Source: Waterburya sp. | Lineage (GTDB): Bacteria > Cyanobacteriota > Cyanobacteriia > Cyanobacteriales > Xenococcaceae | Length of the DNA stretch: 64,000 nt | Direction: 5' to 3' | Assembly: GCA_965217895.1 (NCBI GenBank) | Contig: CBDCJV010000002.1 | Span: 3,680,001 to 3,744,000, forward strand | Notes under the pieces: model-generated | The model's input: the letters and a program-made list of their open reading frames with translations, nothing else | What the model was told of the DNA's origin: nothing | The model's database searches: none | Part shown: piece after piece, positions 46,842 through 52,034 of the stretch | How positions within the stretch are numbered: position 1 is the first letter of the stretch | Layout of the letters: each line of letters opens with the position of its first letter | Translations under genes and position numbers: made by a program

Positions 46842-47533
46842 TCAATAAATATATGGGTTTGAAAGCGGTTTTATTAGATTTTAGCGGTGTAATTATCGAT
46901 GACGAAGAGATAAACCAAGCATTAGTTGCAGAAATAATGCTAAGTGAAAATTTACGAGCTGATGAGTCTGAATATGCTCAATATTGTCGAGGTAGAAGCG
47001 ATCGCGCTTGCTTAAAAGATATCTTAGCTAATCGCGGTCGCATTTTACCTGATGAATATCTTAATAAGCTAATTAAAACTAAATCCAATGGTTACCGACA
47101 GCAAATTGATCGATTAGATGAACTGCCTTTATCTCCTAACTTGGCTGAATTTTTGGTGCAGTTAAAGGAACAAGGTATTGCTATTGGCTTAGTAACTGGT
47201 GCAATTCGTTCTGAAGTTGAGTATATTCTGCAAAAGGCTGAACTAGCAGAATACTTTGATGTCATTGTTGCAGGAGATGACCTCGAACAAAGCAAGCCTG
47301 AACCTGAACCCTATTTGCTGGCTTTGAAAAACCTCAGCTTACAGTCATCAGAGTGTTTAGCAATTGAAGACAACCCTGTAGGTATCGAAGCAGCAAAACA
47401 AGCCAAGATCCAGGTAGTAGGTATTTCTTCTATTTATCCTCTGCATATGTTGCAAAGACAAGCTAACTGGACGGTAGATAATTTTTTAGAAATTGAGCTA
47501 GACAGAGTAGACGAAGTATTGTCCCAAGCTTAA
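46838..47533 (+). CDS. HAD-family phosphatase; likely start is ATG 46853
   Basis: LDFSGVIID, VTGA, SKPEPEPY, AIED. Confidence 0.9.
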   Translation: MINKYMGLKAVLLDFSGVIIDDEEINQALVAEIMLSENLRADESEYAQYCRGRSDRACLKDILANRGRILPDEYLNKLIKTKSNGYRQQIDRLDELPLSPNLAEFLVQLKEQGIAIGLVTGAIRSEVEYILQKAELAEYFDVIVAGDDLEQSKPEPEPYLLALKNLSLQSSECLAIEDNPVGIEAAKQAKIQVVGISSIYPLHMLQRQANWTVDNFLEIELDRVDEVLSQA

Positions 47534-47604
47534 TTGAAGCTATTTACAATCAATAGTAGGAAAATATAGCTTTTGATATTTAGTGATGAAATAACCGTTT
47601 TAGG

Positions 47605-47647
47605 AGTGATTTTAATCACATGACATTTTATTAGGTAACTTTATACT
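47605..47647 (+). promoter_or_regulatory. Class II CRP-type promoter, copy 1
   Basis: AGTGA-ttttaa-TCACA (47605-47620; 9/10 to TGTGA-N6-TCACA) and -10 TATACT (47642-47647); site centred at about -41.5. Confidence 0.7.
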
Positions 47648-47704
47648 GGCTTTACAGGAAGAGATAAAACTTTAACAACTTTTTGAATTTGGTCAGTATA
47701 AATC

Positions 47705-47890
47705 ATGAAAAAACAACTATCTTTTGCCCTACTAACTGTTAGTATTTTTAGTCTTAATATTCTTCCAGCAAAAGCTGTTGATACTAACAACATAGAAATT
47801 ACTGATGTACAGGCTGAATCTAAAGTAATCAGCGATGGTCAATGGTGTGTGGAACTCCCTTTCATGGGCTTGTTCTGTTGGGATCTTTAA
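47705..47890 (+). CDS. Small secreted prepropeptide, copy 1 (core QWCVELPFMGLFCWDL)
   Basis: Signal peptide ending in AKA; paralogue at 48125 shows synonymous and conservative changes; own promoter and terminator. Confidence 0.88.
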   Translation: MKKQLSFALLTVSIFSLNILPAKAVDTNNIEITDVQAESKVISDGQWCVELPFMGLFCWDL

Positions 47891-47944
47891 AAATTTCTAT
47901 TATTGCTGTTGTTGAAAAATTGTTTTAATCAAATATTTATATTA

Positions 47945-47978
47945 AAAGCACGACTTAAATAGTAAGTCGTGCTTTTTT
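47945..47978 (+). terminator. Intrinsic terminator of peptide copy 1
   Basis: aaaagcacgactta-aatag-taagtcgtgctttttt. Confidence 0.85.
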
Positions 47979-48025
47979 GATTGATCGACAATCATTTTAA
48001 TGAGTGATTAAGTAACCGTTTAAGT

Positions 48026-48068
48026 AGTGATCTTAGTCATATAATATCTTATTTAGCAACTTTATACT
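48026..48068 (+). promoter_or_regulatory. Class II CRP-type promoter, copy 2
   Basis: AGTGA-tcttag-TCATA (48026-48041) and TATACT (48063-48068); same spacing as copy 1. Confidence 0.65.
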
Positions 48069-48124
48069 GGCTTTATAGAAAAGAAAAAACTTTAACAACT
48101 TTTTGAATTTAGCCAGTATAAATC

Positions 48125-48310
48125 ATGAAAAAACAACTATCTTTTGCCCTATTAAGTGTTAGTATTTTTAGTCTTAATATTCTTCCAGCAAAAGCTATTG
48201 ATACTAACGATTTAGAGATTTCTAATGTTCAAGCTGAATCTAATGCGATCGCTAATGCTCAATGGTGTGTAGAAATTCCTTACATGGGTGTATTTTGTTG
48301 GGATCTTTAA
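48125..48310 (+). CDS. Small secreted prepropeptide, copy 2 (core QWCVEIPYMGVFCWDL)
   Basis: Tandem duplicate of 47705-47890 at a 420-nt period. Confidence 0.88.
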   Translation: MKKQLSFALLSVSIFSLNILPAKAIDTNDLEISNVQAESNAIANAQWCVEIPYMGVFCWDL

Positions 48311-48323
48311 AAACTTCTATTAT

Positions 48324-48576
48324 ACGTCTGGTGTGAATTAAAACTTGCTTTTAGGATAGATTTGGTTATGGAAATATTAGCTTTTTCGAGTTGCAGGAGA
48401 ATAAACACGCCTCCTAAGCTATAAAAAGTGATGAATTTTCACGTAGTTTTCTAAAGCTAATAGCAGGCTTTGGAAAGCCTCGCCTGCACAAAGTGCAGTC
48501 GGCGAACTCCAGTTCGCGCTGATAGCTAATAGCTAAAAACTAGTAAATTAGAGCGAAGCTAATTCACACTAAGCGT
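48324..48576. mobile_element. 253-bp MITE (AC...GT ends, IS982-like) with a nested small dispersed repeat
   Basis: TIR acgtctggtgtgaatta / taattcacactaagcgt; ATTAT duplicated at 48319-23 and 48577-81; empty site preserved after peptide copy 1. Confidence 0.88.
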
Positions 48577-48609
48577 ATTATTGCTATTATTAGAAAATTA
48601 TTTTAATTA

Positions 48610-48641
48610 AAAACGCGACTTACTGTTTAAGTCGCGTTTTT
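48610..48641 (+). terminator. Intrinsic terminator of peptide copy 2
   Basis: aaaacgcgactta-ctgtt-taagtcgcgttttt; homologous to 47945-47978. Confidence 0.8.
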
Positions 48642-48742
48642 GCACTATTGAAAATAATATATAGCCATAGTTTTAATAACATAATCAATCTATGGCTATC
48701 TGAATTTTTTATCCTCAAGATCGGCTGATTCGCTCTTAAGCA

Positions 48743-50029
48743 CTATCCATACTGTTCTTCTGTATCCAAATCAAATAGCATTTGTAAAGAACGTAAACAA
48801 TGACGGCGCGCTTCGATGTCTTGCTGCGCTCTCAACTGCACCATCGGTTCATGAAGAATTTTATTCACAATTCCTCTGGTTAATGCTTCAATTACTTCTT
48901 GGTGCTTTTCTCCAAACTCTGAACCTAAGCGAGATAAAGCTTTTTCCATTTCTTGTTCGCGAATGCTTTCTACTTTACTACGCAAACAGCTAATTGTCGG
49001 AACTGTTTCGAGCGATCGCCACCACAAAATATAATTATTAACTTCTTCTTCGATAATGCCTTCTGCCTCTAGGGCTATCTTACGTCGGCTTTCCTGATTT
49101 GCTGCTACCACTGCTTTAAGATCGTCAACATTATAAGCGTTAACATATTTAATTTCGTTTACGTCGGCTGCAACATTACGGGGAACCGAAATATCAACTA
49201 ACATCAAGGATCTATCCAAAGTTAGTTCAGTTTCTAATTTGGTTCTATTGAGTATCGGTTCAGTAGCTCCAGTACTGGTAAAAACAAGATCCGATGTAGC
49301 AACTGCTTTCATCATCTCGCTAATCGGATAAATAGTAATATTGGCTTGAGCAAACTGTTCGCAGAGTTTTTGCGCCCGTCTGTGGGAACGATTGACGATC
49401 GCAATATCTGTTACGCCTTTAGACAGCAAATGCTTGACTAGCAAGCAAGCCATCTTACCTGCACCAATAATAGCAATGCTATTGGCAGTCAGATTATCAA
49501 CTTTGGTATAGACCAATTCTACAGCAGCCGAACTAATCGAAACTGCACCTGTTCCAATACTAGTTTCGCTACGAACTCTTTTGCCTGTAGAAATAGCTTG
49601 TTTGAATAGGCGATCAAGCAATCTGCCTAGACCTTGATATTTTTGTCCTAGCTTATGGGTATTTTTTACCTGAGCTAGTATCTGTCCCTCTCCTAGAACT
49701 AAACTTTCCAAACCTGCCGACACACGCATCAAATGGCGCAAAGCATCTTCTCTTAAGAGGGTAAACAGGTTAGGGCGAAGTTCCCGCAAGGAAATTTTGG
49801 CTTTCTCGGCTAAGAACTGACTAATTTCTTTAACACCCTGCTCTATATCTAAAGCTACACCATATATTTCTAAACGATTACAGGTGCTAATAATGGCTAT
49901 TTCCTCAATGTGAGGATAACCTTTGAGCGTTGCGATCGCATTTTCTATCTGAGCTTCGGAAATACTTAATTTTTCCCGCACTTCAACTAAGGCAGTTTTG
50001 TGACTTAAACCAACAACTACAATATTCAT
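48743..50029 (-). CDS. hemA: Glutamyl-tRNA reductase (start ATG 50029, [11 protein letters not shown])
   Basis: [40 protein letters not shown]. Confidence 0.97.
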
Positions 50030-51563: not shown

Positions 51564-52034
51564 AACTTCATCAAGAAGCGATGCTCACTCAAGTCACAGA
51601 TTACCAGAGAGATGTAGCCCTCTAATATTTATTAAGTTTTAATAAGCTCTGACATACAGCGCAGCGTTTATTTAATTATCTTATTATTTTGTAATTAACA
51701 GTTATTAAGATTAACTACTTTTGAAAAGGTAATGAGCTTTTCGCTACTAAGTAGGTATTTTATTATATTTTGGGGCAACTTCTGATTGTGTTTTTAAGCT
51801 TTATGAAGCTTGCTTAAAATGTATCGGGGAGCGATTCTATCCACAATTTTGCTTTGGATGTAGACTCTAAAGTATAAAAAGAAGGCGATCGCGAAGCTAG
51901 TGACCAGCATCGCTTTTATTAATAAAATGTTTAGTTTGCTTACTCAATTGAATATTAAAGGTTACTCTAAAACTATATGCTAACGACTCAAGGCATAGTA
52001 TTTACTTTAGACTAAGCGAAATTTATAGAAGCCG

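What the first reader, a model, noticed from the sequence alone, without database searches (positions are those of the whole stretch)
47582..48641. Tandem secreted prepropeptides with a W-C-X9-C-W disulfide-hairpin core: candidate undescribed peptide signal or effector system
Seen: a 420-nt unit is duplicated whole, including promoter, ORF and terminator. Each ORF has a Sec signal (MKKQ...PAKA), a diverged acidic 21-aa spacer, and a conserved 16-aa C-terminal core QWCVE(L/I)P(F/Y)MG(L/V)FCWDL. Within the core, differences are synonymous (GTG/GTA, GGC/GGT, TTC/TTT) or conservative while the spacer drifts, which suggests purifying selection on the core. Inference: the pre-pro-core layout, the two Cys nine residues apart and the flanking Trp pair fit a processed disulfide-closed beta-hairpin peptide. 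Copy 2 has an AxA-like site (ANA|Q) before a Gln that could form pyroglutamate. No RiPP-modifying enzymes are adjacent, so maturation would rely on Sec, disulfide formation and a protease. I recognise no family for it; a pheromone-like, receptor-binding or antimicrobial role is plausible.
Basis: partly seen in the sequence, partly recalled or inferred. Interest (0 to 1): 0.85.

Follow-up and report, generated by a model that had tools for sequence, protein, structure and literature searches.

The report
Candidate cyanobacterial peptide signal and receptor
These two small genes encode a secreted, disulfide-closed peptide that in related cyanobacteria lies beside, varies together with, and is predicted to bind a surface filament protein of an unstudied membrane-sensor module, which makes it a testable candidate for a peptide communication system in cyanobacteria.

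Summary
The two 61-aa ORFs are real. The family occurs in 33 of 38 other genomes of the genus, usually as one copy, so the tandem is incidental. Both cysteines are invariant and nine residues apart (40 of 40). The upstream DNA holds a conserved CRP class-II promoter (29 of 29).

Outside the genus, distant homologues lie directly upstream of a roughly 750-aa two-partner-secretion (TpsA, haemagglutinin-type) gene at 32 of 36 informative loci in four families. These loci often also carry a TPR-CHAT protease, DUF928, TpsB and a CHASE2 cyclase or GGDEF-EAL sensor. In one genus the peptide core and the TpsA N-half swap together as an allele block, as in agr.

This genome keeps an unlinked orthologue of that TpsA. 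A complex model places the window peptide's core on it (score 0.85, best control 0.02).

Best reading: a cAMP-CRP-induced, Sec-exported peptide ligand of the TpsA-CHAT-DUF928-CHASE2 module, probably a kin-specific signal. Against: six genomes keep the peptide without the TpsA orthologue, this genome has no CHASE2 cyclase, and nothing is shown experimentally. No Pfam or NCBIfam family fits, and ten literature searches found no description.

The parts
47606..47619 (+). CRP-type operator (GTGA-N6-TCAC) of copy 1, centred near -41.5; a second GTGA half-site lies at 47583-47586
   Evidence: GTGA half-site exactly 36 nt before the -10 box in 29 of 29 genus upstream regions; pattern in 1 of 58,000 shuffles
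47642..47647 (+). -10 hexamer of copy 1, 22 nt after the operator
47705..47890 (+). Peptide gene copy 1 (61 aa): signal 1-24 (47705-47776), variable spacer 25-45 (47777-47839), core 46-61 with Cys48 and Cys58 (47840-47887)
   Evidence: core modelled on the genome's short TpsA
47944..47976 (+). Terminator-like hairpin 1 (14-bp perfect inverted repeat, T run)
   Evidence: I12; not scored by the scan
48027..48040 (+). CRP-type operator of copy 2 (one mismatch in the right half)
48063..48068 (+). -10 hexamer of copy 2
48125..48310 (+). Peptide gene copy 2 (61 aa, 77% identical to copy 1)
48323..48575 (.). 253-bp miniature inverted-repeat element with a 5-bp target duplication, inserted between ORF 2 and its terminator; not part of the system
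   Evidence: (I2); absent at this place in four close relatives
48609..48641 (+). Terminator-like hairpin 2, convergent with hemA
   Evidence: I1, I13

Best explanation
The genes encode the peptide ligand of a trans-envelope signalling module, most likely used between cells and specific to kin.

1. cAMP-CRP activates a class-II promoter. The operator geometry is shown; binding is inferred.
2. The precursor is exported by Sec, the signal is removed and the two cysteines close an aromatic hairpin. This is inferred from anatomy and the model; trimming of the spacer, possibly by the TPR-CHAT protease, is a guess.
3. The hairpin binds one face of the beta-helix of a short (about 750 aa) TpsA protein. 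This rests on gene linkage, joint allele exchange and a complex model.
4. Binding is relayed through TPR-CHAT and DUF928 to a CHASE2 membrane sensor. This is inferred from gene neighbourhood only.
5. The output is cAMP or cGMP where the sensor is a cyclase, which could close an agr-like positive loop through CRP. It is c-di-GMP where the sensor is GGDEF-EAL, as in this genome.

In this genus the peptide gene has moved away from its TpsA gene. The tandem is a local duplication.
For: Linkage: peptide homologues lie directly upstream of a co-directional TPS-domain gene at 32 of 36 informative loci outside the genus. These are 13 in the own family, 11 in f15, 6 in f46 and 2 in f9. Three of them were found from the TpsA side; without them the count is 29 of 33.

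Module genes: peptide-TpsA-CHASE2 cyclase-DUF928 with convergent TPR-CHAT and TpsB in genus g70. DUF928 divergent, then peptide-TpsA-TPR-CHAT in f46. CHASE2-GGDEF-EAL, peptide, TpsA in G260.

Allele block (DNA): G336 and G396 share 95% in the leader and 98% in cyclase and DUF928, but 63% in the core and 69% in the TpsA 5' part. The two pairs with the same core share 100% and 92% there; pairs with different cores share 69-89%.

Orthology: the own short TpsA (C1:54408-56660) nests in a 39-row clade (support 100) with 11 peptide-linked TpsAs. All 23 linked ones fall in a 54-row clade (support 71) out of 165.

Complex: score 0.85, best of 3 controls 0.02. The mark was reached by 116 of 157 solved and 2 of 215 mismatched pairs (roughly, as my own alignments were used). 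Runs agree in at least 69% of contacts, partner pLDDT at least 55. The interface is peptide 45-61 on TpsA mature residues 155-432, the part that swaps. No similar peptide complex turned up in the PDB.

Interface columns are less conserved than others where cores differ (0.54 vs 0.71, p 0.009; 0.21 vs 0.42, p 0.001) but not in this genus, where the core is conserved (0.61 vs 0.57, p 0.46).

Five of the six genomes lacking the TpsA orthologue have lost Pro52, a central modelled contact. One of the other 26 rows has.

The genome has one CRP with the CRP-type recognition helix, an intact TPR-CHAT, TpsB and two CHASE2/DUF928 pairs.
Against: - No experiment shows transcript, peptide, disulfide or binding.
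- Six genus genomes (G005, G026, G028, G029, G021, G011; one in 2 contigs) keep peptide and promoter, but no full-length TpsA orthologue was found. Whether they are independent losses was not tested.
- The genus core is conserved, not hypervariable, so kin specificity is weak here.
- This genome's CHASE2 proteins are GGDEF-EAL and neither of its cyclases has CHASE2, so no direct autoinduction loop exists here.
- The operator is not universal: found at 10 loci of other genera of the family, weak in 3 of 6 g70 loci with enough upstream DNA, and not found at the six f46 loci or the three.
- Neighbouring sequences swap together by recombination whether or not they bind.
- Two count-based interface tests were not significant (13 of 29 vs 69 of 239, p 0.09; 12 of 14 vs 108 of 177, p 0.09). 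Outward-facing residues vary more anyway, and kin are not independent.
- Steps 4-5 rest on neighbourhood alone.
Confidence: 0.6

Rival explanations
1. The peptide binds the TpsA but acts within the cell that makes it, as a periplasmic chaperone, lock or co-subunit that sets the module's state. It is not a signal between cells.
For: Explains linkage, joint allele exchange and the complex model equally well. Sec delivers only to the periplasm, and the hydrophobic core (mean hydropathy 0.7-0.9) may not diffuse far.
Against: In this genus the peptide has its own CRP promoter and terminator, while none of 23 short-TpsA upstream regions has such a site. That is odd for a stoichiometric subunit. Seven core types in nine genomes of g70 are hard to explain without self/non-self selection.
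Confidence: 0.22
2. The peptide is an antimicrobial or competitor-directed effector, and the TpsA is a decoy or immunity sink for it.
For: Cores in g70 are rich in Arg and Trp. Allele cassettes also mark toxin-immunity pairs (recalled; CDI described in PMC5422565, passages).
Against: The window cores have net charge -2. No transporter, immunity or modifying gene recurs beside the gene. The recurring neighbours are sensor-module genes.
Confidence: 0.08
3. The peptide is a structural cross-linker that bridges TpsA filaments of kin cells in mats or biofilms, with no signal output.
For: TpsA proteins are often adhesins (PMC5422565, passages). Cyanobacterial CRP controls pili and motility genes (PMC2633013, passages).
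Against: The model uses the whole core on one TpsA face. CHASE2, DUF928 and CHAT genes flank the pair in three families.
Confidence: 0.07
4. In this genus the peptide has a different partner or role, and the TpsA link is ancestral only.
For: The peptide gene is not adjacent to a TpsA gene at any of 17 genus loci read over several kb, nor in the window. Six genomes keep it without the orthologue.
Against: The complex model used this genome's own pair. The closest-contact columns are conserved across 23 genus TpsAs (0.71). G013 has both genes frameshifted.
Confidence: 0.03

Closest known systems
Staphylococcal agr quorum sensing (AgrB/D/C/A); PMC3673130, passages read
   Same: Small cyclic peptide precursor; a hypervariable block covering the peptide and the adjacent part of its partner, giving allele types; autoactivation loop (possible here where a CHASE2 cyclase feeds CRP).
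   Different: Gram-negative envelope; Sec signal and disulfide instead of AgrB processing and thiolactone; the partner is a TpsA beta-helix, not a histidine kinase; output is a cyclic nucleotide; no agr homologue beside the gene.
Sinorhizobium meliloti NsrA - CyaD1/CyaD2/CyaK - Clr - smc02178; PMC13001267 and PMC5498481, passages read
   Same: CHASE2 cyclases respond to a protein-type outside signal through an envelope protein; a CRP-family regulator activates a gene for an exported protein with a signal peptide.
   Different: There the signal is a plant protein sensed by a beta-barrel receptor, and SMc02178 is not needed for perception. Here the candidate signal is self-encoded, and the envelope parts are TpsA/TpsB, TPR-CHAT and DUF928.
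TpsA proteins that bind a ligand (HxuA-hemopexin) or signal to kin (Burkholderia BcpA contact-dependent signalling); PMC5422565, passages read
   Same: TPS domain and beta-helix fold (Foldseek: HMW1, EtpA, HxuA at E 1e-8 to 1e-6); C-terminal cysteine pair like the HMW1/HxuA anchor.
   Different: HxuA binds hemopexin with its C-terminal half for iron uptake, and CDI uses a toxin domain and immunity protein. Here the variable part is the N-half plus a separate small peptide, and no toxin domain was seen.
SyCRP1 class-II promoters such as slr1667; PMC2633013 and PMC10187061, passages read
   Same: TGTGA-N6-TCACA-type site about 22 bp before a TAN3T box; a CRP with the CRP-type recognition helix is present.
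   Different: The outer base of the site is mostly A or G, not T. The target is a peptide gene, not a pilus or cell-surface operon.
Cyanobacterial RiPPs and double-glycine secreted peptides (cyanobactins, microviridins, EbfG), and PatS/PatX (recalled, not from a call)
   Same: Leader plus variable core; small secreted regulatory peptides.
   Different: Sec-type signal, no modifying enzyme or peptidase-transporter nearby, disulfide core, no family match.

Membership tests
agr-type AIP system | AgrB-like processing gene and AgrC-like kinase beside the peptide gene | tested here: not met
   neighbours are TpsA, CHAT, DUF928, CHASE2 or housekeeping genes
agr-type AIP system | Hypervariable block spanning the peptide and part of its partner | tested here: met
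   (genus g70); not evident in the window's genus
agr-type AIP system | Autoinduction by the extracellular peptide | not testable with these tools
   needs reporter assays; no CHASE2 cyclase in this genome
RiPP gene cluster | Co-located modifying enzyme or peptidase-transporter | tested here: not met
   none recurs over 20 loci and the window or in later loci
Any Pfam or NCBIfam peptide family | Score above the curated cut-off | tested here: not met
   0 families for both copies. For the 38-row alignment only weak matches (best E 6.5e-4 NCBIfam, 0.011 Pfam); the one shown with its cut-off scored 15.5 against 40 bits
PagK family (Atlas lead) | PF15284 match | tested here: not met
   Atlas cosine 0.84 with 154 shared features, lead only; no Pfam hit at E up to 1
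Cationic disulfide-hairpin antimicrobial peptides | Net positive amphipathic hairpin | tested here: not met
   core net charge -2 in both copies; some distant cores are Arg-rich
CRP class-II regulon | Operator 22 bp before a -10 box, and a CRP in the genome | tested here: met
CRP class-II regulon | cAMP-dependent binding by CRP rather than another CRP/FNR protein | not testable with these tools
   12 or more CRP-family genes in the genome; one has the CRP-type helix
TpsA-CHAT-DUF928-CHASE2 module | Peptide gene linked to module genes | tested here: met
   32 of 36 informative loci outside the genus; unlinked in this genus, with orthologue and other parts elsewhere in the genome
TpsA-CHAT-DUF928-CHASE2 module | Peptide binds the TpsA | tested here: inconclusive
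   the model supports binding (0.85 vs 0.02) but does not show it

The most novel reading that the evidence does not exclude
A new class of peptide quorum or kin-recognition system in cyanobacteria. A Sec-exported disulfide-loop pheromone is read by a two-partner-secreted beta-helix acting as a surface receptor. The signal is relayed by a caspase-like protease and DUF928 to CHASE2 cyclases or c-di-GMP enzymes, with pherotypes swapped as peptide-receptor cassettes and a CRP feedback loop. It would supply a self-made input for CHASE2 sensors.
Probability: 0.45. Interest if true: 0.95.

Novelty: categorically new. Interest (0 to 1): 0.87.

Why it matters
Peptide quorum sensing is known mainly from Gram-positive bacteria (recalled), and my searches found no such system described for cyanobacteria. 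CHASE2 sensors are common in cyanobacteria. The one characterised input I read of is a plant protein acting through NsrA in S. meliloti.

This finding names a specific, cheaply synthesised candidate ligand, a specific partner protein with a predicted binding face, natural allele pairs for cross-tests, and a measurable output (cAMP or c-di-GMP). It would also give TpsA proteins a new role as peptide receptors, and a possible route to kin recognition in mat- and biofilm-forming cyanobacteria.

Tried and rejected
- Paralogues in the own genome: none beyond the two copies.
- Rfam over 47500-48760: 8 matches, all far below gathering scores. The inverted repeat in the 5' region is seen only in close relatives, so it was not pursued as an RNA element.
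- Foldseek with the peptide model: no match at E up to 0.001.
- Atlas: only leads under 0.9 (PagK; an 'Osc7112_2153 family' cluster at 0.81, not followed).
- Conserved neighbours within the genus: none; hemA is adjacent in only some.
- CRP sites before the own TpsA, TpsB, CHAT, DUF928, CHASE2 and crp genes: none at 7 of 8 matches.
- Weak profile hits read and rejected as other proteins or wrong-frame matches: 4, 5 (a sixth, G035 C130, is a truncated copy without cysteines), 13, 3.
- A locus scan with the wide peptide alignment could not be run, as no stretch was conserved enough.
- Only 1 of the 76 TpsA loci from the genome collection gave a new upstream peptide, and one more repeated a known locus. 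Most cyanobacterial TpsA paralogues therefore lack this peptide type under my filter.
- Earlier findings: nothing by sequence or place.
- A species tree of the genus was not completed, so the independence of the six TpsA-less genomes is open.
- An outer-membrane beta-signal mimic and a metal-binding role were considered from memory and dropped for lack of any supporting evidence.

Full report
1. Observation. The window holds two 61-aa ORFs at 47705-47890 and 48125-48310, 77% identical and 420 nt apart, between a HAD hydrolase gene and a convergent hemA. Promoter region and ORF are duplicated. The second terminator-like hairpin is displaced by a 253-bp element at 48323-48575, which has 10 full copies in the genome, 6 with equal 5-bp flanks. 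No further paralogue exists in the genome.

2. A real family. A 70%-identical homologue is named from Pleurocapsa sp. FMAR1, so the genus is probably Pleurocapsa. The profile search gave hits in 35 of 38 other genus genomes. One is to a different, longer ORF (G034) and one is a wrong-frame match (G002), leaving 33, one of them frameshifted (G013). Most have one copy. G010 has a tandem and G023 has a tandem with a broken first copy. In the 40-row alignment Cys48 and Cys58 are invariant and nine residues apart in 40 of 40, and Trp47 and Gly55 are at least 90% conserved. Spacer charge and length vary freely. AlphaFold gives a signal helix, a disordered spacer and a two-strand hairpin (mean pLDDT 64.5, about 80 over the core). 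Pfam, NCBIfam, Foldseek and the Atlas gave no family.

3. Promoter. My filter extracted 29 ORFs from the 30 loci. All 29 have a GTGA half-site 36 nt before the same -10 hexamer. The right half is TCAC in 23, one base off in 6, and always 22 nt from the -10 box. The pattern arose in 1 of 58,000 shuffles. This is the geometry reported for CRP-activated cyanobacterial promoters (PMC2633013, passages). The genome has at least 12 CRP-family genes; one has a cNMP domain and the CRP-type recognition helix. The same arrangement at 22-23 nt precedes homologues at 10 loci of other genera of the family. It is weak or not found in more distant families.

4. The partner. Within the genus the neighbours vary. 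Iterated profiles reached homologues in four further families (f15, f9, f46, f56). At 32 of 36 informative loci outside the genus the peptide gene lies directly upstream of a co-directional TPS-domain gene of 660-845 aa (Pfam-checked for most, motif-checked for the rest of g70). The four exceptions are one divergent TpsA (G425), two copies in G431 and one in G427. Four loci end at a contig edge and were left out. Three loci were found from the TpsA side; without them the count is 29 of 33. Many of these precursors share a Gln-Ile-x-x-Ala-Thr leader motif before a variable aromatic cysteine loop. In genus g70, whose peptide is identical to that of L118 (record title Coleofasciculus), the order is peptide, TpsA, CHASE2 cyclase, DUF928, with convergent TPR-CHAT and TpsB. 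G418 repeats the first four genes. In f46, DUF928 is divergent and TPR-CHAT follows the TpsA. In G260 a CHASE2-GGDEF-EAL gene precedes the peptide. The linked CHATs checked keep the His and Cys motifs (5 of 5). Earlier unchecked notes of this scan describe the TpsA-CHAT-DUF928-CHASE2 set as widespread with no known input. The few lines shown do not mention this peptide family.

5. Allele exchange. Among nine g70 loci, upstream DNA (87-100% identical), leader (90-98%), cyclase (90-98%), DUF928 (87-98%) and the TpsA 3' part (86-97%, mostly a 207-nt piece) are conserved. Core, intergenic DNA and the first 1.2 kb of the TpsA switch together. The two pairs with the same core share 100% and 92% there; all other pairs share 69-89% (protein level). 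G434 has the leader of G183 (98%) but the core and TpsA of G371, so one breakpoint lies inside the peptide gene. agr has the same design (PMC3673130, passage). Linkage alone could also carry both pieces.

6. This genome. It has two TPS genes. The 751-aa one at C1:54408-56660 nests in a clade of 39 (FastTree support 100) with 11 peptide-linked TpsAs. All 23 linked rows lie in a 54-row clade (support 71) among 165. A stand-alone TPR-CHAT, a stand-alone TpsB and two CHASE2-GGDEF-EAL/DUF928 pairs are elsewhere. No CHASE2 cyclase is present. The complex model of the mature TpsA with residues 25-61 of copy 1 scored 0.85 against a best control of 0.02. That mark was reached by 116 of 157 solved and 2 of 215 mismatched pairs, counts that hold only roughly with my alignments. 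Runs agreed in at least 69% of contacts, with partner pLDDT at least 55. Peptide residues 45-61 lie on TpsA residues 155-432, with Leu51 and Pro52 central. The nearest solved structures are HMW1, EtpA and HxuA, none with such a peptide. The g70 sequences were not in the model's alignment; the family-linked TpsAs were. Interface columns were more variable than others where cores differ (p 0.009 in g70, 0.001 among linked TpsAs of the family) and not in this genus (p 0.46). Two count-based tests gave p 0.09. Gapped columns were dropped, and outward residues vary more in general.

7. Against. Six genus genomes have the peptide but no full-length orthologue of the TpsA with all candidates scored. 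Three lack both, and two incomplete ones have only the TpsA. Five of the six lack Pro52, against 1 of the other 26 rows, which fits relaxed selection, but their independence is untested. The core is conserved in this genus. The operator is not universal. There is no expression or biochemical evidence.

8. Mechanism. Shown: anatomy, conservation, promoter geometry, linkage, allele blocks and orthology. Modelled: the hairpin and its binding to TpsA. Inferred: CRP activation, export, disulfide, relay through CHAT and DUF928 to CHASE2, and action between cells. I put binding to the TpsA at about 0.85, and the cell-to-cell signal reading at 0.6.

9. Comparison and novelty. It works like agr and like the S. 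meliloti CHASE2-cyclase/Clr pathway (PMC13001267 and PMC5498481, passages), but fails membership of both and of RiPP clusters. Ten searches of the held library found no description of the peptide or of the peptide-TpsA pairing. CHASE2 with DUF928 appears once, in passing (PMC5587647, passage), and CHASE2 on a metacaspase in PMC2853523 (passages). All papers were seen as listings or passages only and no supplements were read. Most subscription journals are not in the library.

10. Verdict. A real, undescribed peptide family, and probably the input ligand of an unstudied envelope signalling module. Interest 0.87.

Noticed in passing
window 48323-48575: 253-bp miniature inverted-repeat element with 5-bp target duplications; 10 full copies of 183-258 bp in the genome.
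   Followed up: partly
L299 (G034) and L295 (G015), upstream of other short TpsA genes: Cys-rich ORFs of about 90-100 aa with an acidic leader and no Sec signal lie upstream of TpsA genes outside the clade studied here; possibly a second peptide class for the same kind of module.
   Followed up: no
own genome C2:1319359 (-), C2:883329 (+), C2:4435527 (+), C2:3731914 (-): CRP-like sites with a -10 box at 22-23 nt also precede a Wzc-like gene, a WecB/TagA-like glycosyltransferase, atpD and glpX (window near 51900); names read from the sequences, not from a family scan.
   Followed up: no
L109 and L290 (G013); L216 (G014); L002 (G023): G013 has both the peptide gene and the short TpsA gene frameshifted; G014 has a stop in the TpsA; G023's first tandem copy is broken.
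   Followed up: partly
window 47705-47776 vs 48125-48196: The signal-peptide DNA of the two copies is almost identical (pS 0.06) while spacer and core are diverged (pS 0.44 and 0.63), which suggests gene conversion.
   Followed up: no
L251 (G038) 3152 onward, +: Small secreted ORF ending in a Gly/Arg motif of PatX type (family recalled, not tested).
   Followed up: no
own genome C1 (87 kb): The small contig carries chromosomal-type genes (pnp, ftsH, aroC, hisF by sequence reading), so it is probably a chromosome piece, not a plasmid.
   Followed up: no
upstream of genus short-TpsA genes (L198-L217, L281-L286): A conserved motif about 35-60 nt before the TpsA start, unlike a CRP site, recurs in most of 23 upstream regions; possible regulator site.
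   Followed up: no
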